DNA from: Candidatus Brennerbacteria bacterium
GTDB taxonomy: Bacteria; Patescibacteriota; Minisyncoccia; UBA6257; GWB1-50-10
Assembly: GCA_043799565.1 (NCBI GenBank)
Contig: JAZDNP010000015.1
Coordinates: 12,557 to 76,556, forward strand
DNA length: 64,000 bases
Direction: 5' to 3'
Every line of letters begins with the position of its first letter. The first letter of the stretch is position 1. Made by a program: the position numbers and the translations under genes. Shown here piece after piece: positions 8,818 through 42,458 of this stretch. Below the pieces are notes generated by a model. That model did no database searches. It was not told the origin of the DNA and saw only the letters and a program-made list of their open reading frames with translations.

Positions 8818-8846
8818 TTGACGGCTTAAAAGGGGTGTGGTATCAT
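8818..8846 (+). promoter_or_regulatory. Sigma70-like promoter TTGACG-17-TATCAT overlapping the first ATG of the next gene; the predicted transcription start is near the second ATG (8854), i.e. a leaderless mRNA
   Basis: -35 at 8818-8823, 17-nt spacer, -10 at 8841-8846. There is no Shine-Dalgarno sequence at a usable distance. Confidence 0.4.
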
Positions 8847-11416: not shown

Positions 11417-11422
11417 AATTTT

Positions 11423-11959
11423 ATGGACCAAGTTATTCAAACATTTGAACATCTTGCGCTTGGTGTTTTGGACGCACCATGGGCGCGGTTTCTCTACGGG
11501 GTTCGCTGGCTTTTTATATTCTTGGACATCGCGGTCATCGTTGCGTTCGTCATACTTTTTGTGAAAGCGCTGAACTATCGGCCCAAGTTCACTCGCAGCC
11601 ACAAAAAAGCGGGGGGAAAATCTCCCTTCGACACTAAACTTTTTTCCGAACGGTGGGCAAAACTGGAGAAACATGCGCTTTCCGCGCCTCCCCAGTCATG
11701 CGTGCTCGCTATCATCGAAGCGGACAAGCTTGTGGACGATGCGCTTCGACTCATGGGACTTGAAGGCGAGCATATGGCGGATCGTCTCCAAAAACTTCGC
11801 GTGGAGGACTACCCTTCGCTTGATCGGCTTTGGCGCGCGCACCGCGTAAGGAACGAACTGGTACATACCCCCGATTTCGGCATTGACGAAGGCGACGCCA
11901 AAGATGTGCTCAAGGCCTACCAAAAATTTCTGAAGGAGTTGGGAGCGCTCACTGAATAA
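11423..11959 (+). CDS. Hypothetical small membrane protein
   Basis: 178 aa with one N-terminal TM segment, tightly packed between the flanking genes. Confidence 0.45.
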   Translation: MDQVIQTFEHLALGVLDAPWARFLYGVRWLFIFLDIAVIVAFVILFVKALNYRPKFTRSHKKAGGKSPFDTKLFSERWAKLEKHALSAPPQSCVLAIIEADKLVDDALRLMGLEGEHMADRLQKLRVEDYPSLDRLWRAHRVRNELVHTPDFGIDEGDAKDVLKAYQKFLKELGALTE

Positions 11960-11960
11960 C

Positions 11961-13743: not shown

Positions 13744-13964
13744 TTGCTACACTCATTACCGTGTCCAACGCGACGTTTGCCATGCCGTGGTGGCTTCTTG
13801 CCATCATTGCGGTATTTTTTGTCTGCCTCATTGCGAAGATCATCTCGCTCCTTGATGAGCGGCGCAGATTGAAGTCCGAAATAGCGCTCCTGGAGGGAGA
13901 GGAAGAAAAAGGGGGCGGCTCCGTTCCCGATACCGAAATGGGCGGTTCTGAGGACGGGAGCTAG
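13719..13964 (+). CDS. Hypothetical small membrane protein (the true start may be the internal Met at 13782)
   Basis: 81-aa ORF with one hydrophobic helix (WWLLAIIAVFFVCLIAKII) and an acidic tail. It overlaps the cutA 3' end, so it is weakly supported. Confidence 0.3.
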   Translation: MDVPSSPLVATLITVSNATFAMPWWLLAIIAVFFVCLIAKIISLLDERRRLKSEIALLEGEEEKGGGSVPDTEMGGSEDGS

Positions 13965-17538: not shown

Positions 17539-19241
17539 AACAAGAGACGCGAGATTGTCAGAACTGTAAGCAACCGTTCGTCATCGAAGCGGAGGATTTC
17601 TCGTTCTACGAAAAAATGACGGTGCCGGCGCCCACATGGTGCCCCAAGTGCCGGCTCCAGCGGCGCCTCGCATTTTTCAATCTCTTCAATTTGTGGAAGC
17701 GGAAGTGCGACCTTTGCGGAAATGAGATGATTGCCATGTATCCACCGGAGGCATCTTACAAAGTGTACTGTCCCCATTGCTGGTGGGGAGACGGATGGGA
17801 CCCCTACAACTACGGTCGCGAGTACGATTTCTCGCGGCCATTCTTCGCGCAGTTCAGTGAGCTCTGGCACGAAGTTCCCCTCCTTGGGCTCTCGCTCAGC
17901 TTGAATTCCATTGATACGTCGCCCTACAACAACCACGCGGGAGGATTGAAAAATTGTTACCTCCTTTTCCACGCAGATTTTTGCGAGGATTCGGCATACG
18001 GAGCGTACCTCAACCGGTGCAAGTCCGTTTTTGATTCTTCGCTTACCATTTCTTCCGAGCACTGCTACGATATGCTCCATTCTTACCGGAACAACCGATG
18101 TGTCGGTGGGCGGAGCCAAGTCACCGAATCTATTGACTGCGCGTTCTTGAAGGACTCGATGAATTGCCAGCACTGCTTTGCGTCCGCGAACATGCGGAAC
18201 AAGAAATACTACATATTCAATCAGCCATATTCTAAAGAAGGGTACGAGGAGGAAATGAAGAAGTGGGACCTTGGGAGCTATCGCACATACCAGGAAGCGA
18301 AGCGGCGCGCCGAAGAGCATTTGGTAACATTGCCTCCGAAGCCGACAATGGATGAGTTCACAACGAACTGCACGGGGAGCCATGTGTTCCAAGCAAAAAA
18401 CTGCAAGGATTGTTTCGAAGTGGTGGGTGCCGAGGACTGTCGCTACGTCCATATGGTGCAGGACCCCCCAGTCAAGGACTGCTACGACGTTACAAGCTGG
18501 GGCAACAACACGCAGCGTTGCTATGAAGGCTGTGTGGTGGGGGAGTTCGTAAGCGACCTGAAATTTTGCCAGGAAAGCGGCATTAATCTCTACTTTGCGG
18601 AGTACTGCAAGCTTTCGACGGGAGGCTCGCGTCACTTCGGGTGTGTGTCGGTGAAGAAAGGCGAATACGCCATTTTGAACAAGCATTACTCCAAAGAAGA
18701 ATACAGGGCACTCACCGAGAAGATACGGAAGCATATGGATGAGATGCCGTATGTGGATAAAAGAGGAGGAGTCTATAAATACGGTGAATTTTTCCCGGTG
18801 GAGTTGTCACCGTTCGCATACAACAAAACGATTGCAGATATATTCTTCCCGCTCTCAAAACGGGAGGCAGAGGAGCGGGGATATGTATATATGGAGCCGG
18901 AGGTGCGGACCTACACCGTAACGAAACAAGCGAAGAACCTTCCGGATCATATCAAAGATGCGCCGAACGATATCGTAAAAGAGACCATCGCGTGCGAGAA
19001 ATGCGGGAAAGGATACAAGGTGACCGAGATGGAGCTTGCGTTCCTGCGGAACATGAACCTGCCGCTCCCGCGCCGGTGCCCCTTCTGCCGCATCCAGGAA
19101 AAATTCGCGCAGTGGGTGAAGAATCTCCGCGTCATTGACCGGACGTGCGGCAAATGCGGCGTTACATTCCAAACGAATTATCCCAAGGAGGAGGCGCCGC
19201 ACATTCTCTGCAAACGGTGTTATCTTAAAGAAATCGTATGA
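17535..19241 (+). CDS. Cys-rich multi-zinc-ribbon protein, copy 3 of 10
   Basis: 568 aa, MKQETRDCQNCKQPF...; ATGA overlaps at both ends; C-terminal zinc-ribbon variant CEKCGKGYKV...CPFCRIQEK...CGKCG. Confidence 0.8.
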   Translation: MKQETRDCQNCKQPFVIEAEDFSFYEKMTVPAPTWCPKCRLQRRLAFFNLFNLWKRKCDLCGNEMIAMYPPEASYKVYCPHCWWGDGWDPYNYGREYDFSRPFFAQFSELWHEVPLLGLSLSLNSIDTSPYNNHAGGLKNCYLLFHADFCEDSAYGAYLNRCKSVFDSSLTISSEHCYDMLHSYRNNRCVGGRSQVTESIDCAFLKDSMNCQHCFASANMRNKKYYIFNQPYSKEGYEEEMKKWDLGSYRTYQEAKRRAEEHLVTLPPKPTMDEFTTNCTGSHVFQAKNCKDCFEVVGAEDCRYVHMVQDPPVKDCYDVTSWGNNTQRCYEGCVVGEFVSDLKFCQESGINLYFAEYCKLSTGGSRHFGCVSVKKGEYAILNKHYSKEEYRALTEKIRKHMDEMPYVDKRGGVYKYGEFFPVELSPFAYNKTIADIFFPLSKREAEERGYVYMEPEVRTYTVTKQAKNLPDHIKDAPNDIVKETIACEKCGKGYKVTEMELAFLRNMNLPLPRRCPFCRIQEKFAQWVKNLRVIDRTCGKCGVTFQTNYPKEEAPHILCKRCYLKEIV

Positions 19242-20893
19242 CGAGCGAAACTAAAATCTGCCAGAATTGTCATGGTTCCTTCACCATCGAACCGGACGAT
19301 TTTGGATTTTATCAAAGGTTGGACCTCCCCGCGCCTTTCCGTTGCCCGAAATGTGAGTGGCAATATCTCCTCGCGTTTTGGATTTTCGGTCGCTTCCGCA
19401 TCTCCGTATCAGCGTTGAGCGGAAAGCGTATTATTACCGCGCTTCCGGAAAGCGTACCCTTCCCAATTTACGAGCGCGATGAATTCGTTTCTGATGCGTG
19501 GGATCCGTTGTCGTATGGACGCGACCACGACCCTCGTCGACCTTTTCTCACACGGCTTCTTGAACTTCAAGCAAGTGTTCCTCATCCGCACCAAACCGGT
19601 ATCAAGAACGTGAATTGTGACTGGACCGATGACGTGTGGGAATCTCGGGACGCCTATCTTACACGTTCCGGACTGGGCATGGAATCCGTGAGCTACTGCT
19701 ATCGGGCATTCTACTGCAAGAATTCCATTGATCTTACTTATTGTTTCAATACCGAGCACTCTTACGACTGCCTTCATTGCTTCAATGGTTATGGCCTAAA
19801 GTACTCATTTAATTGCCGTGCCTGCATTAATAGCGCGTTTCTGTACGACTGTCGCAATTGCACGGATTGTTTCATGTGCTGGAATTTGCGGAACAAACAG
19901 TATCACATTCTCAATCAGCCATACTCGAAAGAAGATTACCTCGTCAAAATCAAGGAATTTGATGTTCGTTCGTATGCGGTTGTAGAGCAGTTGAGGAAAG
20001 AATTTTGGGAGCATATCCGCAACGATGCGACTCATCGTGCGGACTATAACTTTCTCAATTCCCGCTCAACCGGAAATTTTTTGACAGAGGACAAAAACTG
20101 TCACAAGTGCTACTTCCTCGATAAATCGGAAAATTGCCGTTATTGTTTCCGCGGGCTGGGGAGCAAGGACAATATCTATATTATGGGTTCTGTAGGAGAA
20201 AAATGTGGGCGTGGTTCCCTCGATCAATGGGGTTACGAGAATGTGTGCAATCTTTACACTTCATATTGTCGCTACAGCGCCTATTTGGATAATTGCGAGG
20301 AATGCGAACATTGTTTCGGCTGTGTCGGTCTTCGGAAGAGAAGTTATTGCGTTTTGAACAAGCAATATTCGAAAGAGCAATACGAGGAACTTGTTTTGCA
20401 TATTAAGTCGCAAATGAAGGCAACGAACGAATGGGGATTGTTTTTCCCGCTTGCCGGAGCTTACAGTGGGTACAATTATTCACTTGCCCATCTCATGTTC
20501 CCCAAGTTTCGCGAGGAGGCACTTGCCTTTGGCGCAAAGTGGGACGAACTACCGCACGACGGACATGTCGGAGTGCGAAGCGAAGATTTGCCAGACAGAA
20601 TCGACGGAGTTCAGGACGAACTTACCAAGCAGCGGATTATCTGCGCCGCAACGAAGCTGAGCTACAATATTGCGCCCCACGAGCTGCAATTCTATCGAGA
20701 ACACGGAGTTCCGCTGCCGCGCGAGCATTTCGACTGGCGGACCTTTAAACGCTTCAAACCGCTGGCGCTTATGGTAGATCTTCAAAGAGAGGAGTGTGTT
20801 TATTGTGGTAAGGAGATTGAACATTATTATTCTCCGGAGCTCGGCTTTCGGAAGGTCGCTTGCGTGGAATGCTACCAACAAAATTTCTCATGA
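19238..20893 (+). CDS. Cys-rich multi-zinc-ribbon protein, copy 4 of 10 (divergent copy)
   Basis: 551 aa. The first zinc ribbon is retained (CQNC...CPKCEW), the second ribbon has lost its cysteines, and the C-terminal module is replaced, ending CVYCGKEIEHYY...CVECYQQNFS. The ORF is intact. Confidence 0.75.
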   Translation: MTSETKICQNCHGSFTIEPDDFGFYQRLDLPAPFRCPKCEWQYLLAFWIFGRFRISVSALSGKRIITALPESVPFPIYERDEFVSDAWDPLSYGRDHDPRRPFLTRLLELQASVPHPHQTGIKNVNCDWTDDVWESRDAYLTRSGLGMESVSYCYRAFYCKNSIDLTYCFNTEHSYDCLHCFNGYGLKYSFNCRACINSAFLYDCRNCTDCFMCWNLRNKQYHILNQPYSKEDYLVKIKEFDVRSYAVVEQLRKEFWEHIRNDATHRADYNFLNSRSTGNFLTEDKNCHKCYFLDKSENCRYCFRGLGSKDNIYIMGSVGEKCGRGSLDQWGYENVCNLYTSYCRYSAYLDNCEECEHCFGCVGLRKRSYCVLNKQYSKEQYEELVLHIKSQMKATNEWGLFFPLAGAYSGYNYSLAHLMFPKFREEALAFGAKWDELPHDGHVGVRSEDLPDRIDGVQDELTKQRIICAATKLSYNIAPHELQFYREHGVPLPREHFDWRTFKRFKPLALMVDLQREECVYCGKEIEHYYSPELGFRKVACVECYQQNFS

Positions 20894-22629
20894 CAGAAAC
20901 AAGGCAGTGCCAGAATTGTCGAAACCCATTTGTCATCGAGCCGGATGATTTTGCGTTCTACGAGCGCATCAAGGTGCCGCCGCCGACGTGGTGTCCGGAG
21001 TGCCGAATGATACGGCGGATGGCGTTTCGGAGCGAGCGCCCCCTTTTTAAAGATTTCTGCGACCTTTGCAGGAAAGAGATAATTTCCATGTACGGACCGG
21101 AAAAGCCGTATAAAGTGTACTGCAACGCATGCTGGTTTTCGGACAAATGGGACGGGACAGAATATGGACGCGAGTATGATTTTTCGCGCCCGTTTTTCGC
21201 GCAATTCGCCGGTCTCCTGGCGGAAGTGCCAAGGATGGCGCTGGAGGCCTACCAGAACGAAAATTCCCCCTATTCAAATTTCACATGGATGTCCAAAAAT
21301 ATTTATCTTTCGCCCTCCTCGATGTTTTCCGAGAATATTCTGTTCACTTTCGGAGCTTGGTACAGCACGGATCTTGTGGATTGTTTCCGCACCCAAAACT
21401 CTTCGCTTGGCTATTATCTGGTTGAGTCCAACAAGTGTTCGTCGTCGCGCTATTTAACAGATTCGCTCGAGTGTCTTGATTCCGCATTCCTCTTTGATTG
21501 CAGGAATTGTAGGAATTGCTTTATGAGTAGCGGACTTCGAAATAAAACGTTTTATTTCCGCAATACCCAGCTTACGAGAGAGGAATATGAGAAGAAATTT
21601 GCGGAAATCGACATGGGAAGTTTTACGTCCACGCAGAAGCTTATCGCTGAATTCAACGAGCTTATGCTCCACACGATGCGGAAGTATGCCATATTGAGCA
21701 AAGTTGAAAATGTAACAGGCGATATGATTTTCAATTCAAAGAACGTGCACCGGGGTTTTAATGGTAAAGATAGCGAAAATTTGAAGTTTGTGGCGCACTT
21801 TGTGGAAGCAAAGGACTCCATGGACGCGCATGGCGTGGGACCGTCTGGGGAACTCATCTACGAAGTGGTCAATGGTGGTTATAAAGACCAGTCGGTCTTT
21901 TTCGTCACCCATACCTATGAAGGGATGAATTTGGTGTGGTATTGCGATTACTGCCGATTGTCGGGGAAAAATCTTTTCGGGTGCGCAGGTCTAAAACACA
22001 AGCAATACTGCATCCTGAACAAGCAATACACAAAGGAGGAATACGAGGAGCTGGTGCCCAAGATCATCAAGCACATGAACGACATGCCGTATGTGGATGA
22101 GAAGGGGAGAGTATATCGGTATGGAGAGTTTTTCCCGCCAGAGTTGAGCCCCTCGGCATACAACGAAACCATCGCCCAAGAGTACTTCCCCCTCACAAAA
22201 GAACAGGCTCTCTCGCGAGGGTATCGCTGGAGAGACCCCGACACCAAGGAGTACAAGGTGACCAAGCCCCCCCAGGGCCTCCCCGATCACATCAAGGATG
22301 TGGACGACTCAATCCTTCAAGAGACCATTGGTTGCGCCCATGAAGGTTTCTGCACCCACCAGTGCACCACCGCCTTCAAGGTCATCCCCGAAGAGCTCGC
22401 CTTCTACCGCAGAATGAACCTCCCCCTCCCCAGGCTCTGTCCCAACTGCAGACACTATGAACGTCTCTCGGAGCGGAACCCTATGAAGCTTTGGCACCGC
22501 CAATGCATGTGTGATAAGCCAAACCATCCCCACCACGGTCGTTGCCCCAACGAATTTGAGACGAGTTATGCGCCCGAAAGGCCGGAGACGATATATTGTG
22601 AACAGTGTTATAACGCCGAAGTCGCATGA
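20890..22629 (+). CDS. Cys-rich multi-zinc-ribbon protein, copy 5 of 10
   Basis: Begins MTETRQCQNCRNPF at the ATGA overlap. Its C-terminus ...LWHRQCMCDKPNHPHHGRCPNEFETSYAPERPETIYCEQCYNAEVA matches the copy 2 subtype. Confidence 0.8.
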   Translation: MTETRQCQNCRNPFVIEPDDFAFYERIKVPPPTWCPECRMIRRMAFRSERPLFKDFCDLCRKEIISMYGPEKPYKVYCNACWFSDKWDGTEYGREYDFSRPFFAQFAGLLAEVPRMALEAYQNENSPYSNFTWMSKNIYLSPSSMFSENILFTFGAWYSTDLVDCFRTQNSSLGYYLVESNKCSSSRYLTDSLECLDSAFLFDCRNCRNCFMSSGLRNKTFYFRNTQLTREEYEKKFAEIDMGSFTSTQKLIAEFNELMLHTMRKYAILSKVENVTGDMIFNSKNVHRGFNGKDSENLKFVAHFVEAKDSMDAHGVGPSGELIYEVVNGGYKDQSVFFVTHTYEGMNLVWYCDYCRLSGKNLFGCAGLKHKQYCILNKQYTKEEYEELVPKIIKHMNDMPYVDEKGRVYRYGEFFPPELSPSAYNETIAQEYFPLTKEQALSRGYRWRDPDTKEYKVTKPPQGLPDHIKDVDDSILQETIGCAHEGFCTHQCTTAFKVIPEELAFYRRMNLPLPRLCPNCRHYERLSERNPMKLWHRQCMCDKPNHPHHGRCPNEFETSYAPERPETIYCEQCYNAEVA

Positions 22630-24392
22630 ACTCTGAAACCAAAACCTGCCAAAATTGCCACAGCCCGTTCATCATTGAACCGGATGATTTCGCGTTCTAC
22701 GAGCGCATCAAAGTGCCGCCACCGACATTTTGCGCGGAATGCCGCGAAAAGCGGCGTATCGCATCCAGGAACGAACGCTCGCTCTACAGAAGGAAGTGCG
22801 ATATGTGCGGGAAGGAAGTGGTATCGCGAATTTCGCCCGACAAAACTTATCCGATGTATTGCAATAATTGTTGGTGGTCGGATAAGTGGGATGTGCTTTC
22901 CTACGGAAGGGATTTTGACGCCACAAAACCATTTTTCGCGCAGTATAAGGAGTTGCTCTATTTGGTTCCTCACGTTGCGATGTACAACAGCGCAGTGGTG
23001 AACAGCGATTGGGTGAACCAGGAAACCAACGACAAAAACTGCTATCTCAATGTCGGTGGTCACTACAACGAGAATTCCGCATACAACACCTATGAGGTTT
23101 ACGGAAAGGATTCTTTGGACTGTCACTGGCTTCTCAATAGCGAGTTCTGCTACGCCGCCATCAATTGTCACCGGTGTTATAAAGCTTTTTATTCCCAAGA
23201 TTGTTTTGACTGCCAGGACACATATTTTTCATACGATTGCAGGAATTGCACGAACATTCTTGGGTGCGCGGGACTTCGCAACAAGCAGAACTATATATTT
23301 AACAAACCGGTTTCCAAGGAGGAATTCGCGAAATTTTTAGAGGAGAACCCTCTCTCGTCCGCAAAGAACGTTGCCCGATTGGCGGCAGAAGCTCGGAAGA
23401 TAGGGAGTGGCATACCGCGGCGATTCAGCGCGGTTTTCAAGTCGGTGAATTGCAGTGGAAATAATCTCGTGGAGTCTAAGAACGCACACTACGTTTTTGA
23501 TGGGGGAACCATTGAGAATTCCAAATACCTTTTTATCACCGGATGGGTGAAAGACAGCTACGATATGACCTCGAGCGGCGGTTCGGAGTTGAGCTATGAA
23601 TGTTCGAGTGGGGGCGGAGGGTATAACGTGAAGTTTACCGCATATAGCATGTCGCCGAACCCGCTCGAAAAGATGCATTCCCGCGATTTGGAATACTGCT
23701 ACGCCACGGGAGATTGCGATAGTTGTTTTGGGTGCGTGGGTCTCCGGAGTAAAAAATATTGCATTTTGAACAAGCAATATTCCGAAGCGGACTATCAAAA
23801 GAAAGTTGCGGAAATACGGCAGCAGATGATGGCGGTGCCCTATGCGGACGGGATGGGAAGAGAATATCGCTATGGCGAGTTTTTCCCGTCAGAGCTCTCG
23901 CTTTTCGGGTATAACGAAAGCGCGGCGATGGACTACTATCCACTCACGCGCGACGAGGCCCTTGCGCAAGGTTATGTATGGAGCGATTACGAATCGGAAA
24001 CGAGCGTGGCATTCTCGGGCTATGAAATCCCCGACGACATCAAAGACGTGAAGGACGATGTGCTGGAAAAGGTTTTGGAGTGCGAGGTTTCGGGGAAACC
24101 GTACAAGATAATTCCGATGGAGCTCGCATTCTACCGACGCATGGGTTTGCCGCTTCCGCGCCGTGCACCGCTCCAGCGGCACAAGGACCGCACCGCAAAA
24201 CTTTTGCCGCGCAAGCTTTTTGACCGTGCGTGCGAGTGTGGAGGAAAAGCGTCCAACAAGGGCGGTTTTGCAAATACCACTCCGCATTTTCACGGTGACG
24301 GACACTGCCCGAACATAGTACAGACACCCTATGCGCCGGATCGACCGGAAATTGTATATTGCGAGCAATGCTATCAAACTGAAATTATATGA
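22626..24392 (+). CDS. Cys-rich multi-zinc-ribbon protein, copy 6 of 10
   Basis: 588 aa, MNSETKTCQNCHSPF...; two central CxxCxxC-F/L-GCxGLRxK modules; C-terminal CEVSGKPYKI subtype. Confidence 0.8.
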   Translation: MNSETKTCQNCHSPFIIEPDDFAFYERIKVPPPTFCAECREKRRIASRNERSLYRRKCDMCGKEVVSRISPDKTYPMYCNNCWWSDKWDVLSYGRDFDATKPFFAQYKELLYLVPHVAMYNSAVVNSDWVNQETNDKNCYLNVGGHYNENSAYNTYEVYGKDSLDCHWLLNSEFCYAAINCHRCYKAFYSQDCFDCQDTYFSYDCRNCTNILGCAGLRNKQNYIFNKPVSKEEFAKFLEENPLSSAKNVARLAAEARKIGSGIPRRFSAVFKSVNCSGNNLVESKNAHYVFDGGTIENSKYLFITGWVKDSYDMTSSGGSELSYECSSGGGGYNVKFTAYSMSPNPLEKMHSRDLEYCYATGDCDSCFGCVGLRSKKYCILNKQYSEADYQKKVAEIRQQMMAVPYADGMGREYRYGEFFPSELSLFGYNESAAMDYYPLTRDEALAQGYVWSDYESETSVAFSGYEIPDDIKDVKDDVLEKVLECEVSGKPYKIIPMELAFYRRMGLPLPRRAPLQRHKDRTAKLLPRKLFDRACECGGKASNKGGFANTTPHFHGDGHCPNIVQTPYAPDRPEIVYCEQCYQTEII

Positions 24393-26155
24393 CCCCCGAA
24401 ACGCGGCAGTGTCAGAACTGCAAGCAGAATTTCGTCATTGAACCGGACGATTTTGCGTTCTACGAGAAAATGAAGGTTCCTGCGCCGACTTTCTGCCCGG
24501 ATTGCCGCCGACAAAGACGTTTCGCGTGGCGTAATGAACGTACGCTCTATAAACGCGCGTGCGACATGTGCCGCAAAGATGTGATCGCGCTTTACCCGAA
24601 GGACTCGAAATTTCCGGTCTACTGCAACGCGTGTTGGTTTTCGGACAAATGGGATCCGCTCACATACGGAGCCGCATACGACCCCTCAAAGCCGTTTTTC
24701 CGGCAATTCAAGGAATTAAGTGAAAAAGTTCCGCGGCTTGCCATTTGGGTACAACAGTCCACAGATTCGGAATACACCAACCAATCATATTCGAATAAAA
24801 ACGTATATCTTTCCTTCGCGCTTCGAGATTCGGAAGATGTGGCGTATTGTTGCCGCGCGGTGGAGCTCAAGCAGTGCATTGACGATACCTACACTCATCA
24901 TTCGGAGCTTCTATATCAATGTGTTGATACCGACAAATCGTACCGGAGCCAGTTTCTCGAAGAAGCCGATGGATGCGTGGAAAGCGCATTTCTTTCCAAC
25001 GCGCGAAACTGCCAGAACTGTTTCGGGGGAGCGAATCTTCGGTCCGCGTCCAACGTATTTTTTGGCGAGGCGCTCAGCAAAGAGGCGTACGAAGAAAAAT
25101 TGGCGGGCATAGACAAAGGAAGCAGGAAAGTGCTTGAAGAGCTGAAAAAGAAGCTTGCCGAGCTGAAAAAGCGGAGCATTTTCCGTTTTGCCACACTCAC
25201 GAATGCCACCAACGTGACCGGAAACCATCTTTCCAATGCGAAAAATTGCCATTTTGTTTTTGACGGGTTCGAGCTTGAAAATGCCCGCTATTCCTCATGG
25301 GTCTTTACGAGCAAGGAAATATCCGACTGCTACGGCATGGGCGGGAGCGAGTTCATCTACGAGGGGATTGGCGTGGAAGAGGTGAATAACATCAAATTCG
25401 CGACGGTGACCGACAGTTCACACCATGTGGAATATACCGACATGTGCTCCGCTTCATCCAATCTTTTCGGGTGTGTGGGCCTGAGAAACAAAGAGTATTA
25501 CATTCTGAATAAACCATACGCCAAAGAAGAATACGAGAAGAAAGTGGCGGAAATTATCGCCCACATGAATGCGTCACCCTACACAGACAAGAGGGGGAGG
25601 GTATACAGGTACGGGGAATTTTTCCCCGCGGAGCTTTCTCCCTTCGCATACAACGAAACGGTGGCGCAGGAAAACTATCCGTTGAAAAAAGAAGATGCGG
25701 AAGCGCAGGGGTACTTCTGGAGAGAGCCCGAGGCGCACCAATATGCAACAACGCTTACTGCGGAAAACGTGCCGGACAACATAAAGGAAGTTTCGGATTC
25801 AATAACCAACGAGACGATCCAGTGCGCTCATGAAGGCAAGTGTAATGACCAGTGTTCCACCGCGTTCCGCATCACCCCGCTTGAATTACGGCTCCATCGA
25901 GCGCTGAACATGCCATTGCCCCAACTTTGCCCCAACTGCCGGCATTATGAGCGGCTTGCCCAGCGGAATCCCTTGAAGCTTTGGCGCCGGAAATGCCAAT
26001 GTGCGGGCGGAAAGTCCGAGGATGGCGTTTATACGAATACCGCCGTGCATTCGCACAAAGATGGGCGTTGCATAAATGAATTTGAAACAAGCTACGCCCC
26101 CGAAAGGCCGGAGACGATATATTGCGAACAGTGTTATAACGCCGAAGTGATATGA
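24389..26155 (+). CDS. Cys-rich multi-zinc-ribbon protein, copy 7 of 10
   Basis: 588 aa, MTPETRQCQNCKQNF...; C-terminal GCAHEGKCNDQC...LPQLCPNCRHYERLAQRNPLKLWRRKCQCAGG subtype. Confidence 0.8.
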   Translation: MTPETRQCQNCKQNFVIEPDDFAFYEKMKVPAPTFCPDCRRQRRFAWRNERTLYKRACDMCRKDVIALYPKDSKFPVYCNACWFSDKWDPLTYGAAYDPSKPFFRQFKELSEKVPRLAIWVQQSTDSEYTNQSYSNKNVYLSFALRDSEDVAYCCRAVELKQCIDDTYTHHSELLYQCVDTDKSYRSQFLEEADGCVESAFLSNARNCQNCFGGANLRSASNVFFGEALSKEAYEEKLAGIDKGSRKVLEELKKKLAELKKRSIFRFATLTNATNVTGNHLSNAKNCHFVFDGFELENARYSSWVFTSKEISDCYGMGGSEFIYEGIGVEEVNNIKFATVTDSSHHVEYTDMCSASSNLFGCVGLRNKEYYILNKPYAKEEYEKKVAEIIAHMNASPYTDKRGRVYRYGEFFPAELSPFAYNETVAQENYPLKKEDAEAQGYFWREPEAHQYATTLTAENVPDNIKEVSDSITNETIQCAHEGKCNDQCSTAFRITPLELRLHRALNMPLPQLCPNCRHYERLAQRNPLKLWRRKCQCAGGKSEDGVYTNTAVHSHKDGRCINEFETSYAPERPETIYCEQCYNAEVI

Positions 26156-27948
26156 CGAACGAGACAAAGACTTGCCAAAATTGTAAACAGAACTTCGTCA
26201 TTGAACCGGACGACTTTGCGTTCTACGAGAAAATGAAGGTTCCTGCGCCGACGTTCTGTCCCGATTGCCGTCGGCAGAGACGGATGGCCTTTCGGAACGA
26301 GCGAATATTCTACAAACGATCTTGCAATGTGCCTGGGCACACCGAGGAAATAGTATCCACATTTTCTCCAGACAAGTCCGTTACGGTTTATGACGACCGA
26401 TATTGGTGGAGCGATGCATGGAACCCTACGGACTATGGGCGACCGTATGATTTTTCGCGCCCGTTCTTCGAACAGTACAAAGAACTTTTGCGCCGAGTAC
26501 CGCTCATCAATCTTTCCATCACTAATATGGTAAATTGCAGTTATTGCAACGTGTCAGAAGGCGACAAAGATTCATTTTTCATCTCCGGCTCCGAGAGGAA
26601 TGAGAACGTGTCGTACGCGAACCGGGTAGTGTTCAGTAAGGATTCACAGGATCTCTATATCGCGAACGCGTGCGAATTGAGCTACGAGCTTGTAAGTTGC
26701 AACAAGTGTTACCGCGTCTTTTTCAGTAGAAACTGCAGTGATTGCTCGGAGTCGGCATTTTTATGGAACTGCACCAACTGTAGCCACTGTTTTGGATGCA
26801 CAAATCTTCGAAACAAGTCATATCACTTTTTCAATACGCCGCTCTCCAAGGAAGAATTCGAGAAAAAAATGCGCGAGGTGGGTCTTGGAAATTTTGCGGT
26901 GGTTGAGCAATATAGAAAGAAGCTTCGTGGACTCGCCGAGAAATCGCTCCACCGATTCGCGAACATCTTAAAAAGTGTGGAAGTAACCGGTGATAATATC
27001 GCCTTCTCTAAAAACATAAAACAGAGTTTTGACATGGTCGGGAATCCCGCTGCGGAAGACGGCAAGTATCTCACTTGGGGCGGTATGGGAGTGAAAGACG
27101 TATGGGATGCCGGGCCAGGGGTAGGTGTTTCGCTTGAGCGGGCATATGAGGTAACTGATGTCGGCATCCAATCAAACAGTTGTTTCTTTGCGAGTGTGGT
27201 ATACGGTTCCTATGACGTGTACTACAGCATCAACTGTCACGGGTCGCGCCACCTCTTCGGGTGTTACGGTCTTCGCAGCAAGGAGTACTGTATTTTGAAC
27301 AAAGAATATTCAAAAGAAGAGTACGAAGCCCTCGTGCCGAAGATCATTTCTCATATGAACGAGGTTCCCTACGCGGACAAGAAAGAGAGGATGTATCGGT
27401 ACGGCGAGTTTTTCCCGATGGAAATTTCTCCTTACGCCTATAACGAGGTTATTGCACAGGAATACTACCCACTCACAAAAGAACAAGCGCTCGCGAAGGG
27501 GTACGAGTGGAAAGACCAAGACGCGAAGGGGCACCAGATTACCATAGGGTCCGCGGACCTTCCGGACGATATTAAGGATGTTTCGGACAATATCCTGAAA
27601 GAGACGATAGGGTGTGCAGATGGAGGAATATGTAATCATCAGTGCGCGCTTGCGTTCAAAATAATGCCGCAGGAACTCACGTTCTATCAGAAAATGGGAT
27701 TGTCGCTTCCCCGTCACTGCTATAACTGCCGCCACTATGAGCGTTTGGCGCAGAGAAATCCCCTGAAACTGTGGCACCGGAAGTGCCAGTGCGCAGGGGG
27801 AAAAGCAGAGAACGGCACTTACGCAAATACCGTTTCCCATACGCACCACGGCACCGGCCACTGCACAAACGAATTTGAAACGACCTATGCTCCCGACCGC
27901 CCGGAAGTCGTGTATTGCGAGCAATGTTATCAGGCCGAAGTGGTATGA
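26152..27948 (+). CDS. Cys-rich multi-zinc-ribbon protein, copy 8 of 10 (CN-x-PGH subtype)
   Basis: 598 aa. The second zinc ribbon is replaced by CNVPGHTEE...YDDRYWWSDAWNP. The C-terminus has GCADGGICNHQC...CYNCRHYERLAQRNPLKLWHRKCQCAGG. Confidence 0.8.
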   Translation: MTNETKTCQNCKQNFVIEPDDFAFYEKMKVPAPTFCPDCRRQRRMAFRNERIFYKRSCNVPGHTEEIVSTFSPDKSVTVYDDRYWWSDAWNPTDYGRPYDFSRPFFEQYKELLRRVPLINLSITNMVNCSYCNVSEGDKDSFFISGSERNENVSYANRVVFSKDSQDLYIANACELSYELVSCNKCYRVFFSRNCSDCSESAFLWNCTNCSHCFGCTNLRNKSYHFFNTPLSKEEFEKKMREVGLGNFAVVEQYRKKLRGLAEKSLHRFANILKSVEVTGDNIAFSKNIKQSFDMVGNPAAEDGKYLTWGGMGVKDVWDAGPGVGVSLERAYEVTDVGIQSNSCFFASVVYGSYDVYYSINCHGSRHLFGCYGLRSKEYCILNKEYSKEEYEALVPKIISHMNEVPYADKKERMYRYGEFFPMEISPYAYNEVIAQEYYPLTKEQALAKGYEWKDQDAKGHQITIGSADLPDDIKDVSDNILKETIGCADGGICNHQCALAFKIMPQELTFYQKMGLSLPRHCYNCRHYERLAQRNPLKLWHRKCQCAGGKAENGTYANTVSHTHHGTGHCTNEFETTYAPDRPEVVYCEQCYQAEVV

Positions 27949-29681
27949 CCTCCAAAACCCCCACATTTAATGTGGCACTAAATGCGATTTTTGATACGCT
28001 CGTCCCGCACGAACGAACGTGTGCGTGGTGCGGAGAGAAATTCCAGGTGGAGAAGGAGGACATTGATTTCTACCGGATGCTCCGTGTACCTCCACCAACG
28101 TGGTGCCCGGAGTGCCGTGAAAAGAGGCGATTCGGACACTTGATGAGGATGATGAAGTTTTTCAAACGACCGTGTAGCGCGCCAGGTCACAGTGAAAACG
28201 TTATTTCCGTCATTCCACCCGCGGCGCCACATAAAACTTTTGATTTTTCGTATTGGCATTCGGACGCGTGGGATGCGGCAACGTTTGGATGCGCATATGA
28301 CGTTGCGAAACCATTCGGGGAGCAATTCCGTGCTCTATTCCTTGATGTGCCACATGTTCCATTGGAACGAGATCCTGCGGCGGTAAATTCGGACTACGCG
28401 GTGGGTGGAACTGCATCAAAAAACGTTTACTTTTCGGGGATGGCGCTTGATTGCGAGAACATTTTTTATTCCTACGATAGCCGTTACAGCCACGACCTCG
28501 TGGATTGCAATGAAGTAAGCAATTCCGGGAACTGCTATGGCGCGATTTGTTCCGCGTACAGCGAGCGATGCCGTTTTATTATCGGGTGTTCCCATTGTCT
28601 AGACTGCGATTTCCTCTATGAATGCAAGCATTGTTCGCATTGTTTTATGTCGGCGAACTTGAGAAACAAGTCCTACATGTTCCGCAATGAGCAACTCTCA
28701 AAAGAGGAATACGAGGAGCGAATGCGCGAAATTAGGACAGGCGAGCGGATCCAAATAGAGGCACTTCATAAAGAGTTTGAGGACGTTATGGCGCGTTCGT
28801 TGAGGCGCGCGGTTCAGACGGTGCACACCACAGATTCCGTGGGGGACAGTTTGAGCGAATGCAACCGATGTTTCTTTGCCTTCAGATCGGAAAAAGTCGA
28901 AAACGCGCGGTATGTAGCGAACGTTTTTTCCGCGCATGACCTTATGGACACATTGAACAACATACAAACAGAGCAGTCGTACGAAAACATTGTTATCGGA
29001 TGGGGGAGCAAGAATTATTTTTCAATGTACCTCCGCCACTCGTCATCCATGGAGTATTGTTCCGAGTGCCTCCGTTGTGCCGATTGTTTCGGATGCGTTG
29101 GGCTCAAAGATAAGAAATTTCACATTTTTAACGTGCCGCATCCTGAAGATGAATATTGGCGGCGCGTGGATGAGCTGAAGACCGCAATGCTTGCGCGCGG
29201 CGAATATGGAGAATTTTTCCCGCTCACGCTCGGTCTTTTTCCGTACCAAACGTCAAATGCGCAGAAAGAATTTCCTATCACTGAAAAGGAGGCGCAACAG
29301 CGGGAAATCCCCTGGTACGCCGAATCCTCGTCCGATATTTCCACAAACCTACGGGTCCGCAAAGCGCCCGCCGAGGTCCCCAAAGACATTAAGGATGTTA
29401 CCGATGGGATTCTCAATGATGCCATTGCATGCGAGGTAAGCGGCAAGCCATTTCGCATCACAAAAGACGAGCTCGCGTTCTACCGTAAAATGGAACTTCC
29501 GCTCCCCACAAAACATCCTTGGGAACGAATGCGGGAGCGGGGACGATGGGAACATGGATTTTGGCTCTCGCCTTTCATGTGTCCAAAATGCAAGGAACAG
29601 TCCTGGTCGGTGTATAACAAGGAAGAGCAGCGGCGCTTCGAGATCTATTGCGAATCGTGTTATCTCAAGGAGGTGATATAA
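27945..29681 (+). CDS. Cys-rich multi-zinc-ribbon protein, copy 9 of 10 (CS-x-PGH subtype, divergent N-terminus)
   Basis: Begins MTSKTPTFNV at the ATGA overlap. CAWCGEKF...CPECREKRR zinc ribbon, then CSAPGHSEN. C-terminal CEVSGKPFRI subtype with a degenerate terminal ribbon. Confidence 0.75.
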   Translation: MTSKTPTFNVALNAIFDTLVPHERTCAWCGEKFQVEKEDIDFYRMLRVPPPTWCPECREKRRFGHLMRMMKFFKRPCSAPGHSENVISVIPPAAPHKTFDFSYWHSDAWDAATFGCAYDVAKPFGEQFRALFLDVPHVPLERDPAAVNSDYAVGGTASKNVYFSGMALDCENIFYSYDSRYSHDLVDCNEVSNSGNCYGAICSAYSERCRFIIGCSHCLDCDFLYECKHCSHCFMSANLRNKSYMFRNEQLSKEEYEERMREIRTGERIQIEALHKEFEDVMARSLRRAVQTVHTTDSVGDSLSECNRCFFAFRSEKVENARYVANVFSAHDLMDTLNNIQTEQSYENIVIGWGSKNYFSMYLRHSSSMEYCSECLRCADCFGCVGLKDKKFHIFNVPHPEDEYWRRVDELKTAMLARGEYGEFFPLTLGLFPYQTSNAQKEFPITEKEAQQREIPWYAESSSDISTNLRVRKAPAEVPKDIKDVTDGILNDAIACEVSGKPFRITKDELAFYRKMELPLPTKHPWERMRERGRWEHGFWLSPFMCPKCKEQSWSVYNKEEQRRFEIYCESCYLKEVI

Positions 29682-42420: not shown

Positions 42421-42458
42421 TTGCAAAGAACACACAAACCAACGTATCATTGCGATAT

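What the first reader, a model, noticed from the sequence alone, without database searches (positions are those of the whole stretch)
24389..26155. Each paralog contains an internal tandem duplication: two Cys-rich C-x2-C-x2-C-F-G-C-x-[GN]-L-R-x-K...[IL]-[LF]-N-[KQ]-x-Y-S-K-E-E-[YF] modules
In every copy a module ending in L-R-N-K-x-Y-x-[IF]-x-N-[KQ]-P-x-S-K-E-E-[YF]-E-x-K occurs twice, about 170-200 residues apart. In copy 7 these are NCQNCFGGANLRSAS...LSKEAYEEKL and SNLFGCVGLRNKEYYILNKPYAKEEYEKKV. In copy 6 they are CTNILGCAGLRNKQNYIFNKPVSKEEF and CDSCFGCVGLRSKKYCILNKQYSEADY. Upstream of each module is a run of Y/F-x-C and C-x2-C motifs spaced every 7-20 residues, such as YCYRAFYCKNSIDLTYCFNTEHSYDCLHCF in copy 4. 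That spacing suggests a repetitive Cys-ladder fold, possibly a beta-helix or zinc-knuckle-like solenoid. So the family is built from an ancient intragenic duplication, and the present tandem gene amplification is layered on top of it.
Basis: seen in the sequence. Interest (0 to 1): 0.6.

Follow-up and report, generated by a model that had tools for sequence, protein, structure and literature searches.

The report
Duplicated beta-helix protein family, Patescibacteria
The gene encodes an uncharacterised, zinc-ribbon-flanked protein of ultra-small (Patescibacteria) bacteria whose core is an ancient internal duplication of a narrow 12-residue-per-turn beta-helix, and genes of this family often sit in arrays interleaved with an orphan secretion-type (VirD4-like) ATPase whose role in these bacteria is unknown.

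Summary
The spacing is 148-156 residues, not 170-200. The motif is only the C-terminal end of a ~140-residue module that is duplicated as a whole (profile-profile P 100%, E 7e-43).

Each module is about eight 12-residue coils. Positions 1, 4, 7 and 10 are small (Cys/Ser/Ala/Val/Thr) and almost never charged or aromatic. This is the in-out-out pattern of the beetle antifreeze beta-helix. AlphaFold2 gives period-12 strands (pLDDT 89-95 in c10 over residues 121-180). Foldseek finds no solved equivalent.

The ladder cysteines are poorly conserved and do not co-vary, unlike the true zinc sites. They look like core-filling residues, not zinc knuckles, except possibly one C-x2-C-x2-C-x2-C turn at each helix end in some members.

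The N-terminal pair of zinc ribbons is also repeated at the C-terminus.

The family has more than 3,800 50%-identity clusters and is essentially Patescibacteria-specific. Every complete member examined has two modules, and it has no Pfam model for the core and no published description that I could find. Function is unknown. The best lead is operon-level linkage to a split VirD4/TraD-like ATPase.

The parts
24389..26155 (+). c7, the gene of the finding: 588 aa. Architecture: ZnR-A, ZnR-B, module 1, module 2, middle domain, ZnR-A', ZnR-B'.
   Evidence: ORF and translation; identical to an NCBI hypothetical protein of Ca. Brennerbacteria; AF2 model with pLDDT 86.5, pTM 0.87.
24401..24520 (+). ZnR-A (residues 5-44): treble-clef-type zinc ribbon, C8/C11...C36/C39, motif CxNCxxxFxIEPDDFxFYEKxxVPxPTxCPxCR.
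   Evidence: The four Cys are invariant in 88 sequences. Sub-threshold Pfam PF13451 zf_Tbcl (16.4 bits against a cutoff of 24). Foldseek on the c10 model matched viral 'putative zinc-ribbon domain' models (0.7 A rmsd over ~40 residues, E 0.2-1.4, not significant); which ribbon was matched is not shown.
24551..24643 (+). ZnR-B (residues 55-85): C58-x2-C61-x17-C79-x2-C82 zinc ribbon.
   Evidence: Exact CxxC-x17-CxxC spacing. Sub-threshold PF23477/TIGR04272 hits in c6. Ligands 61/79/82 are lost or kept together (phi 0.96-0.98). The domain type was shown to bind Zn in M. mazei small proteins (PMC12704099).
24698..25117 (+). Module 1 (residues 104-243): lead-in helix FxQFxELxxxVP, about 8 coils of beta-helix, and a C-terminal cap.
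   Evidence: hhalign against module 2: P 99.8-100%, E 2.6e-28 to 6.6e-43; alignment A3.
24758..25045 (+). Beta-helix 1 (residues 124-219): 8 x 12-residue coils, consensus [SC]-x-[ND]-[CSV]-[YF]-x-[SC]-x-x-small-x-x.
   Evidence: Period 3 with super-period 12 in the profile autocorrelation. Positions 1/4/7/10 are 72-90% small, <=2% charged, <=1% aromatic. The c10 AF2 model shows EEEE--E--E-- with period 12 and pLDDT 89-95 over residues 121-180, falling to 65-82 towards the end of helix 1.
25001..25108 (+). Read as the last rung plus a beta-hairpin and alpha-helix cap.
   Evidence: Motif position. DSSP shows a short hairpin then helix 231-239 in c7 and 234-243 in c10. This is the most conserved part of the module.
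25145..25561 (+). Module 2 (residues 253-391): duplicate of module 1.
25202..25489 (+). Beta-helix 2 (residues 272-367): same 12-residue coil pattern, less regular, with a one-residue register shift near invariant G278.
   Evidence: AF2 confidence is lower here (block-mean pLDDT 70-79 over 271-370 in c7 and 70-86 in c10).
25445..25552 (+).
   Evidence: C362 is present in 98-99% of sequences and F360 and N374 are invariant in the 88-sequence alignment.
25574..25804 (+). Middle domain (residues 396-472): conserved PYxDxxGxxYxYGEFFPxELSPFAYNET...PLTKEEA...GYxW; acidic; no known family.
   Evidence: No similarity to the 86-123 linker.
25805..26152 (+). ZnR-A' plus ZnR-B' (residues 473-588): C-terminal copy of the N-terminal double zinc ribbon (C479/C489...C514/C517; C536...C561...C579/C582).
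   Evidence: hhalign N-terminus against C-terminus: P 99.4-99.8%, E 8.3e-22 to 1.7e-28. Ligands 489/514/517 co-vary at phi 0.89-0.97.
14150..29681 (+). Nine-gene tandem array c1-c9 (c1 14150-15814, c2 15811-17538, c3 17535-19241, c4 19238-20893, c5 20890-22629, c6 22626-24392, c7 24389-26155, c8 26152-27948, c9 27945-29681).
   Evidence: All eight junctions are ATGA stop/start overlaps.
40633..42420 (+). Tenth, unlinked paralog c10 (595 aa), between an M50 peptidase gene and a class II aminoacyl-tRNA synthetase gene.
   Evidence: AF2 model with pLDDT 88, pTM 0.88.
10019..13403 (+). Upstream context, a probable partner system: membrane protein (10019-11416, 465 aa), 178-aa protein (11423-11959), VirD4/TraD-like ATPase (11961-13403).
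   Evidence: Pfam TrwB_AAD_bind, TraG-D_C, T4SS-DNA_transf. NCBIfam TraD/VirD4/CedD hits, all sub-threshold. phrog_5156 spans both the membrane protein and the ATPase. The system is adjacent to or interleaved with family genes in other genomes.

Best explanation
c7 belongs to a large, uncharacterised, essentially Patescibacteria-specific family. The protein has no N-terminal signal peptide or membrane segment that I could see (it starts directly with a zinc ribbon), so it is presumably cytoplasmic.

Architecture: [treble-clef Zn ribbon + CxxC-x17-CxxC Zn ribbon] - [module] - [module] - middle domain - [the same two Zn ribbons again].

Each ~140-residue module is a lead-in alpha-helix, about eight coils of a very narrow beta-helix with 12 residues per coil, and a terminal cap. 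The cap is the last rung C-x2-C-x2-C-F-G-C-x-[GN]-L-R, then a beta-hairpin, then the SKEEYE helix. It is the best-conserved part because it closes the solenoid.

The 'Cys ladder' is the set of four inward-pointing positions per coil (1, 4, 7, 10). The lumen is so narrow that only Cys/Ser/Ala/Thr/Val fit, as in the Tenebrio antifreeze beta-helix (inward C2, S5, C8, A11). Here the cysteines act mainly as small core residues, not as ligands or disulfides.

The two modules arose by one ancient intragenic duplication that predates the radiation of the family. The terminal zinc-ribbon pairs are a separate duplication. The gene array is itself old, with subfamilies conserved across genomes.

Inferred, not shown (about 0.3): the protein is a rigid two-barrel scaffold with a conserved face (coil positions 1-6), a variable face (positions 7-12) and basic zinc-ribbon 'hands'. 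It works together with, or is cargo or adaptor of, the split VirD4/TraD-like membrane ATPase that is encoded beside or inside many of these arrays.
For: Duplication:
- hhalign P 99.8-100%, E 2.6e-28 to 6.6e-43 over 136-138 columns.
- BLASTP of half against half gives E down to 6e-15.
- The alignment of 20 modules has few gaps.

Age of the duplication:
- 198 of 198 complete ORFs have two modules.
- All of the top 150 of 3,816 representatives match the module profile in 2-3 stretches.

Beta-helix:
- Autocorrelation is elevated at every multiple of 3, with maxima at lags 12 and 36 (and 33, 15, 24 in core 1), not at 18. The signal is absent in control regions.
- Positions 1/4/7/10 are 72-90% small, <=2% charged and <=1% aromatic in helix 1.
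- A K/E/K/E ladder sits at coil position 2.
- The AF2 c10 model has pLDDT 89-95 over residues 121-180 with DSSP 'EEEE--E--E--' at period 12. The c7 model shows strands every ~6 residues over 137-164.
- Foldseek returns almost only beta-helix proteins, though none significantly.
- The TmAFP coil is TCTxSxNCxxAx with an out-in-out-out-in... pattern and inward C2, S5, C8, A11 (PMC8038014).

Cysteines are not ligands:
- Ladder Cys frequency is 10-60%, with Ser/Ala/Val/Thr as alternatives.
- Ladder phi is <=0.5, against 0.89-0.98 for zinc-ribbon ligands.

Zinc ribbons: invariant CxxC pairs, sub-threshold PF13451/PF23477/TIGR04272 hits, and a domain type shown to bind Zn (PMC12704099).

ATPase link:
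- A VirD4-like ATPase is present in 27 of 80 loci (L001 and L004-L083 minus those without usable sequence are counted once; the two redundant copies of L001 were excluded). The best-scoring ATPase hit is on the same strand as the family genes in all 27.
- It lies <=300 nt from a family gene in 21 loci and is flanked by family genes on both sides in 12.
- The gene order membrane protein - p178 - family genes - ATPase - family genes is seen in L019, L035 and L078.
- A second, ~45%-identical ATPase subtype is also adjacent to family genes.
- 5,713 VirD4-like T4CPs have been reported in 2,918 Patescibacteria genomes, only 148 of them near virB4, and their function is open (PMC12102498).
Against: - No coordinates were available, so coil handedness, the relative placement of the two helices and any pseudo-symmetry are untested.
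- AF2 confidence is only 63-86 (10-residue block means) for the end of helix 1 and all of helix 2. AF2 can over-regularise repetitive sequence.
- No significant structural match exists: best PDB E 0.015, TM <= 0.24. TmAFP itself is not among the 50 listed hits of either PDB search.
- A complete C-x2-C-x2-C-x2-C turn at the last coil is more frequent than a margin-preserving null. Positions 205-214 are all Cys in 90 of 227 sequences against 64 expected from column frequencies, and 353-362 in 42 against 17. Counting all four-Cys runs, the swap null gives z about 3.4 (helix 1) and 6.6 (helix 2). A facultative metal site in some members is therefore not excluded.
- The ATPase link is associative only. 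About two thirds of loci have no such ATPase within 10 kb. c10 and several single-copy homologs sit among housekeeping or metabolic genes. Conserved synteny among related genomes inflates the counts.
Confidence: 0.72

Rival explanations
1. Metal-binding solenoid. The periodic CxxC pairs of successive coils ligate zinc (or Fe-S or other soft metals), so the ladder is a stack of zinc knuckles or a lumenal metal chain.
For: - Cysteines sit at i, i+3 in a fixed register.
- Four consecutive inward positions span exactly one coil.
- Complete Cys4 turns at the last coil of each helix are enriched over a row- and column-preserving null (z 3.4 and 6.6).
- Paralogs c4, c8 and c10 have CCCC at 205-214, and c4 and c9 have it at 353-362.
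- A CutA divalent-cation-tolerance gene lies just upstream, and similar genes occur in 11 loci.
Against: - Ladder Cys are present in only 10-60% of sequences and are freely replaced by Ser/Ala/Val/Thr.
- Co-occurrence is phi <= 0.5, against 0.89-0.98 for the real zinc ribbons in the same proteins.
- There is no i/i+6 coupling.
- c7 has no complete Cys4 turn.
- The enrichment may reflect lineage-wide Cys richness and shared ancestry.
Confidence: 0.12
2. The family acts independently of the VirD4-like ATPase. It would be a housekeeping cytoplasmic nucleic-acid- or protein-binding scaffold that uses four zinc ribbons as binding hands, and the ATPase adjacency would only be conserved synteny.
For: - About two thirds of loci lack the ATPase within 10 kb.
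- c10 and other copies lie next to aminoacyl-tRNA synthetase, enolase, DnaK and ribosomal protein genes.
- Orthologous subfamilies are well conserved across genomes (51-75% identity), which is more like core cell biology than fast-evolving effectors.
- The zinc-ribbon segments are basic: net +1 to +5 for three of the four, and about -1 for ZnR-B'.
Against: - Family genes are inserted between the membrane component and the ATPase of one cluster in several genomes.
- The ATPase is <=300 nt away and co-directional in 21 loci.
- Two distinct ATPase subtypes show the same adjacency.
- With about two T4CP genes per ~1 Mb genome (PMC12102498; genome size is my own estimate), chance adjacency would be well under 1%.
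Confidence: 0.25
3. The core is an ordinary left-handed hexapeptide-repeat beta-helix (LpxA, GlmU or gamma-carbonic-anhydrase type) and the protein is an acyltransferase-like enzyme.
For: The top Foldseek PDB hits for both models are almost all hexapeptide-repeat beta-helix proteins.
Against: - None is significant (best E 0.015). TM-scores are 0.04-0.24 with rmsd mostly 7-17 A.
- The sequence super-period is 12, not 18.
- Small residues fall at i and i+3 rather than the [LIV]-G-x2-[STAV]-x pattern.
- There is no Pfam Hexapep hit even at E <= 1.
- No conserved catalytic residues were seen.
Confidence: 0.03
4. The two motifs are short convergent motifs and there is no real internal duplication.
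For: None found.
Against: Homology extends over ~138 aligned columns with E down to 6.6e-43 and is detectable by single-sequence BLASTP in all ten paralogs.
Confidence: 0.01

Closest known systems
Beetle hyperactive antifreeze proteins (Tenebrio molitor TmAFP, PDB 1EZG; DcAFP, DhbAFP)
   Same: Both have 12 residues per coil and about 7-8 coils. Both show the out-in-out-out-in side-chain pattern with four small inward residues per coil (C2, S5, C8, A11 in TmAFP; positions 1, 4, 7, 10 = S/C, C/S/V, S/C, small here). The sub-pattern S-x-N-C-x-x-[A/S]-x-x-[C/small] matches. Basis: PMC8038014.
   Different: - No detectable sequence homology: PDB profile searches at E <= 10 do not find 1EZG, and it is not among the 50 listed Foldseek hits.
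- No TCT/TxT ice-binding rank.
- No evidence of C(i)-C(i+6) disulfide pairing.
- No signal peptide seen, and the protein is embedded in a 590-aa multidomain bacterial protein.
- Handedness was not determined.
- Most likely convergence on the same minimal solenoid geometry.
CxxC-x17-CxxC domain proteins (TIGR04272 / Pfam PF23477 zf_Tbcl_2) and PF13451 zf_Tbcl 'probable treble clef' domains
   Same: ZnR-B has the exact C-x2-C-x17-C-x2-C spacing and a ...P.YC..C[YW] ending. ZnR-A fits the PF13451 profile over 41 of 48 positions. Some homologs carry a precomputed PF23477 hit, and JGI names one 'CxxC-x17-CxxC domain-containing protein'. M. mazei small proteins of this type bind zinc (PMC12704099).
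   Different: The window proteins score below the curated cutoffs (16.4 against 24 and 27 bits; 15.8 against 36). Here the two ribbons form a fixed pair that occurs at both ends of a large protein. The function of these domains is unknown anywhere.
Left-handed hexapeptide-repeat beta-helices (LpxA, LpxD, GlmU, gamma-carbonic anhydrase) and TBCC/CARP beta-helices
   Same: Parallel beta-solenoids with small residues and Asn ladders. They are the only kind of solved structure that Foldseek retrieves for the core. There is a weak TBCC hit in c4 (13.1 bits).
   Different: They have 18-residue (or longer) coils against 12 here. All matches are non-significant. No Hexapep or TBCC hit reaches threshold.
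Secretion ATPase plus adjacent substrate arrays (VirD4-type T4CP with nearby effectors; the T7SS EssC/EccC FtsK-like ATPase followed by paralogous substrate genes). This comparison rests on my own knowledge.
   Same: A membrane-associated FtsK/HerA-superfamily ATPase is encoded in the same operon as variable numbers of paralogous, signal-peptide-less proteins.
   Different: No channel components (VirB4, VirB6, VirB8) were seen in the window. No secretion signal is defined. The family proteins are zinc-stabilised and well conserved, unlike typical effectors. The relationship is purely genomic.

Membership tests
TmAFP-type 12-residue beta-helix (beetle antifreeze proteins) | 12-residue coil repeat | tested here: met
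   Autocorrelation maxima at lags 12 and 36, with lag 18 weaker. DSSP period 12 in the c10 model.
TmAFP-type 12-residue beta-helix (beetle antifreeze proteins) | Inward-pointing small residues at every third position (C2, S5, C8, A11) | tested here: met
   Positions 1/4/7/10 are 72-90% small, <=2% charged and <=1% aromatic in helix 1. Orientation is inferred from sequence and DSSP, not from coordinates.
TmAFP-type 12-residue beta-helix (beetle antifreeze proteins) | T-C-T / TxT ice-binding rank on one face | tested here: not met
   Outward positions are K/E, N/D and aromatic. No Thr rank appears in the coil consensus.
TmAFP-type 12-residue beta-helix (beetle antifreeze proteins) | One C(i)-C(i+6) disulfide per coil; secreted protein with signal peptide | tested here: not met
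   No i/i+6 Cys pair is among the correlated pairs. Cys are not conserved. The N-terminus is a zinc ribbon, not a signal peptide.
TmAFP-type 12-residue beta-helix (beetle antifreeze proteins) | Sequence or structural homology to 1EZG; right-handed coil | tested here: inconclusive
CxxC-x17-CxxC domain (TIGR04272 / PF23477) | C-x2-C-x17-C-x2-C spacing | tested here: met
   C58, C61, C79, C82 in c7.
CxxC-x17-CxxC domain (TIGR04272 / PF23477) | Score above the curated cutoff | tested here: not met
   c6 scores 16.4 bits against 27 (PF23477) and 15.8 against 36 (TIGR04272). Some homologs (P0052, P0070) do carry PF23477.
CxxC-x17-CxxC domain (TIGR04272 / PF23477) | Zinc binding | not testable with these tools
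   Shown only for M. mazei small proteins by ICP-MS (PMC12704099). Here the all-or-none co-variation of ligands (phi 0.96-0.98) is consistent with a metal site.
PF13451 zf_Tbcl treble-clef domain | Profile match above the gathering score | tested here: not met
   c7 residues 5-44 match profile positions 4-44 of 48, but at 16.4 bits against a cutoff of 24.
Hexapeptide-repeat left-handed beta-helix (Pfam Hexapep) | [LIV]-G-x2-[STAV]-x hexads with 18-residue coils; Pfam hit | tested here: not met
   No Pfam hit at E <= 1. Super-period is 12. Foldseek E >= 0.015 and TM <= 0.24.
Type IV secretion coupling protein (VirD4/TraD/TraG), for the neighbouring ATPase 11961-13403 | TrwB/TraG-type nucleotide-binding and all-alpha domains | tested here: met
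   Pfam PF10412 (39.4 against 20.5), PF12696 (27.8 against 22) and PF02534 (26 against 20.1).
Type IV secretion coupling protein (VirD4/TraD/TraG), for the neighbouring ATPase 11961-13403 | Equivalog-level match; N-terminal membrane anchor in the same polypeptide; linkage to virB4 or a relaxase | tested here: not met
   All NCBIfam hits are far below cutoff. The membrane part is a separate upstream gene, fused in phrog_5156. No VirB4 or relaxase appeared among the window ORFs that I scanned.

The most novel reading that the evidence does not exclude
The arrays of double-beta-helix/zinc-ribbon proteins are the missing clients of the thousands of 'orphan' VirD4-like coupling ATPases of Patescibacteria. 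They would be cargo, or cargo adaptors whose variable beta-helix face gives specificity. Together with the split membrane ATPase they would form a previously unrecognised translocation system. Episymbiotic ultra-small bacteria could use it to move proteins or nucleic acids to or from their hosts.
Probability: 0.2. Interest if true: 0.85.

Novelty: new variant of a known kind. Interest (0 to 1): 0.55.

Why it matters
Patescibacteria make up a large share of bacterial diversity, yet most of their lineage-specific proteins are unexplained. This family has more than 3,800 50%-identity clusters and at least 583 relatives among species-representative genomes. In this window it takes up about 17.5 kb across ten genes, which by my estimate is 1-2% of a typical ~1 Mb genome. 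It has no Pfam model for its core and no literature that I could find.

Three points matter:
- It gives a domain map and a fold hypothesis: a minimal 12-residue-per-turn beta-helix, so far associated with beetle antifreeze proteins, built here with a reduced Cys/Ser core instead of disulfides.
- It shows how to tell structural 'Cys ladders' from metal sites, by comparing their co-variation with that of the bona fide zinc ribbons in the same protein.
- It links the family to the VirD4-like ATPases. A 2025 survey reported 5,713 copies, almost all away from virB4, possibly 'exapted for other functions' (PMC12102498). That open question now has a concrete candidate partner to test.

Tried and rejected
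- hhalign in self-comparison mode returned nothing. This is a tool quirk, so I sliced the alignment instead.
- Pfam, NCBIfam, PADLOC and PHROGs gave no family for the core.
- PDB sequence searches with the full-length and the module profiles gave only chance-level hits to LIM domains and HIV gp120.
- The hexapeptide-repeat and TBCC/CARP readings were rejected on period and scores.
- The antifreeze function was rejected: no TxT rank and no signal peptide.
- The disulfide reading was rejected: no i/i+6 co-variation.
- I tested whether the 86-123 linker is related to the 396-472 middle domain. It is not.
- I looked for genuine single-module relatives in 83 loci and found only short one-module ORFs, most of them at locus or contig ends. 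Hits 151-3,816 of the representative search could not be listed, so weaker single-module relatives cannot be excluded.
- Literature searches found no description of the family.
- Clustering of neighbouring ORFs also returned clusters of apparently antisense ORFs, which I ignored.

Full report
**What is at the coordinates**

Window 24389-26155 (+) is an ORF of 588 codons, here called c7. It is the seventh of nine head-to-tail paralogs:
- c1 14150-15814
- c2 15811-17538
- c3 17535-19241
- c4 19238-20893
- c5 20890-22629
- c6 22626-24392
- c7 24389-26155
- c8 26152-27948
- c9 27945-29681

All eight junctions between them are ATGA stop/start overlaps, so the array is one translationally coupled operon. 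A tenth paralog (c10, 595 aa) lies apart at 40633-42420. Pairwise identities among the ten are 27-54%. c7 is identical to an NCBI 'hypothetical protein' of a Candidatus Brennerbacteria MAG.

**Checking the observation**

The ...[FLI]x[GCS]x[GNS][LMV][RK]...N..YSKEEYE motif occurs exactly twice in each of the ten paralogs. The two copies are 148-156 residues apart, not 170-200.

The similarity is not confined to the motif:
- c7 residues 104-243 align with 253-391 over 138 columns at hhalign probability 99.8%, E 2.6e-28, using the nine tandem paralogs alone.
- With 227 family members the figures are 100% and E 6.6e-43.
- Single-sequence BLASTP of half 1 against half 2 is significant in all ten paralogs (E 5e-3 to 6e-15).
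- The 20 modules align with few gaps.

The internal duplication is therefore real and far beyond chance.

The N-terminal ~85 residues contain two zinc ribbons. They recur at the C-terminus (residues 473-585) at P 99.4-99.8%, E 8e-22 to 2e-28. The architecture is therefore ZZ - module - module - middle domain - ZZ.

**What the module is**

In an 88-sequence alignment, every column of the core that ever holds Cys falls in a single register modulo 3 (124...214 in module 1; 284...371 in module 2). The power spectrum of the Cys+Ser fraction peaks at period 3.0.

Autocorrelation of the profile columns is raised at every multiple of 3. It has maxima at lags 12 and 36, not at 18. Nothing comparable appears in control regions.

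Laid out in 12-mers, each module has about eight coils with consensus [SC]-x-[ND]-[CSV]-[YF]-x-[SC]-x-x-small-x-x. Over 227 sequences:
- Positions 1, 4, 7 and 10 of helix 1 are 72-90% small (C/S/A/T/V/G), <=2% charged and <=1% aromatic.
- Positions 2-6 are conserved, including a K/E/K/E ladder at position 2.
- Positions 8-12 are the most variable.

This matches the geometry published for the Tenebrio antifreeze beta-helix. [quoted passage not shown]

AlphaFold2 models agree in outline:
- c7: pLDDT 86.5, pTM 0.87, with short strands every ~6 residues over 137-164.
- c10: pLDDT 88, pTM 0.88. Over residues 143-200, DSSP reads a 4-residue strand followed by single beta-bridges every third residue, repeating every 12 residues. 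Ten-residue block means of pLDDT are 89-95 over 121-180.

Confidence is lower for the end of helix 1 and for helix 2 (block means 63-86).

Foldseek against PDB returns almost only beta-helix proteins for both models (LpxA, LpxD, GlmU, gamma-carbonic anhydrase). None is significant: best E 0.015, TM <= 0.24, rmsd mostly above 7 A. Profile searches of PDB sequences find nothing. The local conformation is beta-helical, but no solved structure shares the fold at detectable level.

After the last rung, DSSP shows a short hairpin and a helix (231-239 in c7).

**Are the cysteines metal ligands?**

The protein carries an internal positive control. The ligands of zinc ribbons that some members have lost are kept or lost together: phi 0.96-0.98 for positions 61/79/82 and 0.89-0.97 for 489/514/517.

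The ladder cysteines behave differently:
- They are present in only 10-60% of sequences.
- They alternate with Ser/Ala/Val/Thr.
- They co-occur weakly (phi <= 0.5, with one pair, 356/359, at 0.69). No i/i+6 pair that would suggest disulfides is among the correlated pairs.

They look like small core-filling residues.

There is one caveat. A full turn C-x2-C-x2-C-x2-C at the last coil is commoner than expected. Positions 205-214 are all Cys in 90 of 227 sequences against 64 expected from column frequencies, and 353-362 in 42 against 17. Counting all four-Cys runs, a null that preserves row and column totals gives z of about 3.4 (helix 1) and 6.6 (helix 2). A facultative metal site at the helix end in some members (c4, c8, c9, c10, but not c7) cannot be excluded.

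**The end domains**

ZnR-A (C8, C11, C36, C39) matches Pfam PF13451 below threshold. ZnR-B has the exact C-x2-C-x17-C-x2-C spacing of TIGR04272/PF23477. That domain type was shown by ICP-MS to bind zinc in Methanosarcina small proteins (PMC12704099). Foldseek on the c10 model matched viral 'putative zinc-ribbon domain' models at 0.7 A rmsd over ~40 residues, though not at significant E-values.

**Evolution**

The family is large:
- More than 5,050 hits at 90% clustering among the 8,000 candidates that were scored.
- 3,816 50%-identity representatives match the module profile, 1,467 of them at E <= 1e-30.
- At least 583 relatives occur in species-representative genomes, with record titles that are almost all Patescibacteria of the Parcubacteria/Paceibacteria type.

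All 150 best representatives match the module profile in 2-3 stretches. In 83 loci from other genomes (two of them redundant copies of L001) plus the window, 198 ORFs carry two modules. The 13 ORFs with one module are short (183-360 aa) and most abut a locus or contig end.

The arrays are also old. Each window paralog has a closer relative in another genome (51-75% identity) than any in-genome paralog (<=54%). Subfamilies c1, c2, c3, c4 and c9 are recognisable across genomes. Arrays are common: more than half of the loci hold two or more copies, and some hold up to nine.

**Function**

No catalytic signature, signal peptide or membrane segment was seen. The helices are acidic (net about -5 each). 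Three of the four zinc-ribbon segments are basic (net about +1 to +5), and ZnR-B' is about -1.

The only functional lead is genomic. Upstream of the array lie three genes:
- a 465-aa membrane protein (10019-11416);
- a 178-aa protein (11423-11959);
- a VirD4/TraD/TraG-like ATPase (11961-13403), with Pfam TrwB_AAD_bind, TraG-D_C and T4SS-DNA_transf and NCBIfam TraD/VirD4/CedD hits, all sub-threshold.

One PHROG family (phrog_5156, 824 aa) covers both the membrane protein and the ATPase, so the two act together.

Among 80 loci from other genomes (the two redundant copies of L001 excluded), a homolog of this ATPase occurs in 27. The best-scoring hit is on the same strand as the family genes in all 27. 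It is <=300 nt from a family gene in 21 and has family genes on both sides in 12. In L019, L035 and L078 the order is membrane protein - p178 - family gene(s) - ATPase - family gene(s). A second ATPase subtype, ~45% identical, shows the same adjacency.

A 2025 survey counted 5,713 VirD4-like T4CPs in 2,918 Patescibacteria genomes. Only 148 were near virB4, and the authors suggested they may have been exapted (PMC12102498).

I therefore propose, as inference only (about 0.3), that the family proteins are partners, adaptors or cargo of this split T4CP-like ATPase. Three things argue against this:
- About two thirds of loci lack the ATPase within 10 kb.
- Several copies sit among housekeeping genes.
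- The proteins are zinc-stabilised and well conserved, which is unusual for secreted effectors.

**Comparison with known things**

The fold resembles the beetle AFP 12-residue beta-helix in geometry, but the family is not a member of it. There is no sequence or structural hit, no TxT rank, no disulfide pattern and no signal peptide. It is not a hexapeptide-repeat beta-helix, because both the period and the residue pattern are wrong. The terminal domains are relatives of PF13451 and PF23477/TIGR04272, but they score below the curated cutoffs.

**Verdict**

An ancient intragenic duplication of a solenoid module is supported. A zinc-knuckle ladder is not, for c7 and for most members. A recent amplification is not.
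- The internal duplication alone is ordinary.
- The interest lies in an abundant, undescribed Patescibacteria family with an unusual minimal beta-helix and an operonic link to orphan T4CP-like ATPases.

Noticed in passing
window 40633-42420 (+): A tenth paralog (c10, 595 aa, 32-54% identical to the others) lies 11 kb downstream of the array. It sits between an M50/RseP-type peptidase gene (39556-40617) and a class II aminoacyl-tRNA synthetase gene (42396-43706). It has the strongest internal repeat signal (BLASTP E 5.6e-15).
   Followed up: yes
window 24389-24643 and 25805-26152 (c7 residues 1-85 and 473-588); the same in all paralogs: The N-terminal pair of zinc ribbons is duplicated at the C-terminus (hhalign E 8e-22 to 2e-28). 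This gives a ZZ-core-core-ZZ layout that a single tandem duplication of one unit cannot explain.
   Followed up: yes
window 15811, 17535, 19238, 20890, 22626, 24389, 26152, 27945: All eight gene junctions of the nine-gene array are ATGA overlaps, where the stop of one gene overlaps the start of the next. This implies one operon with translational coupling.
   Followed up: yes
window 10019-13403 (+); loci L019, L035, L078, L025, L011 and others: There is a cluster of a membrane protein (465 aa), a 178-aa protein and a VirD4/TraD-like ATPase directly upstream. In other genomes family genes are inserted between these components. The ATPase occurs in 27 of 80 loci, with the best-scoring hit co-directional in all 27 and <=300 nt from a family gene in 21.
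   Followed up: yes
window 10019-11416 and 11961-13403: phrog_5156 (an 824-aa phage protein family of unknown function) matches both the membrane protein (residues 136-273) and the ATPase (residues 33-459, E 1e-59). A fused version therefore exists in phages. PADLOC also gives a 'mad8' hit (E 8e-12) for the ATPase.
   Followed up: partly
window 13438-13743 (+) and 13719-13964 (+): A CutA1 divalent-cation-tolerance gene and a small single-pass membrane ORF lie between the ATPase and the array. A CutA-like neighbour cluster occurs in 11 loci. Whether this relates to the Cys-rich proteins is unknown.
   Followed up: partly
c7 residues 205-214 and 353-362 (window 25001-25030, 25445-25474) and the equivalent positions in the other paralogs: A complete C-x2-C-x2-C-x2-C turn at the last coil of each helix is enriched in the family (90 of 227 and 42 of 227 sequences). 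It is present in c4, c8 and c10 (helix 1) and in c4 and c9 (helix 2), but absent from c7. This could be a facultative metal site.
   Followed up: partly
window 17517-18734 (-): A 405-aa antisense ORF overlaps c3. Other long antisense ORFs lie inside family genes and recur in other loci. They are probably artefacts of the codon composition of the family genes rather than real genes.
   Followed up: no
window 37153-38160 (+) and 43711-44742 (+): Two MreB/Mbl paralogs lie 5.5 kb apart, flanking the c10 region. A PBP2-type transpeptidase gene is at 45775-47793.
   Followed up: no
window 54-2768 (+) and 8845-9873 (+): There is a 904-aa protein with a lamin-tail domain, and a protein combining sigma-70 region 4 with a HARE-HTH domain. 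Homologs of the latter recur near family arrays in 11-12 loci.
   Followed up: no
loci L064, L065, L075: Three family-bearing contigs are labelled Gammaproteobacteria, Burkholderiales (a 268-kb contig) and Woesearchaeota. These are probably binning or labelling errors, but the taxonomy was not verified.
   Followed up: no
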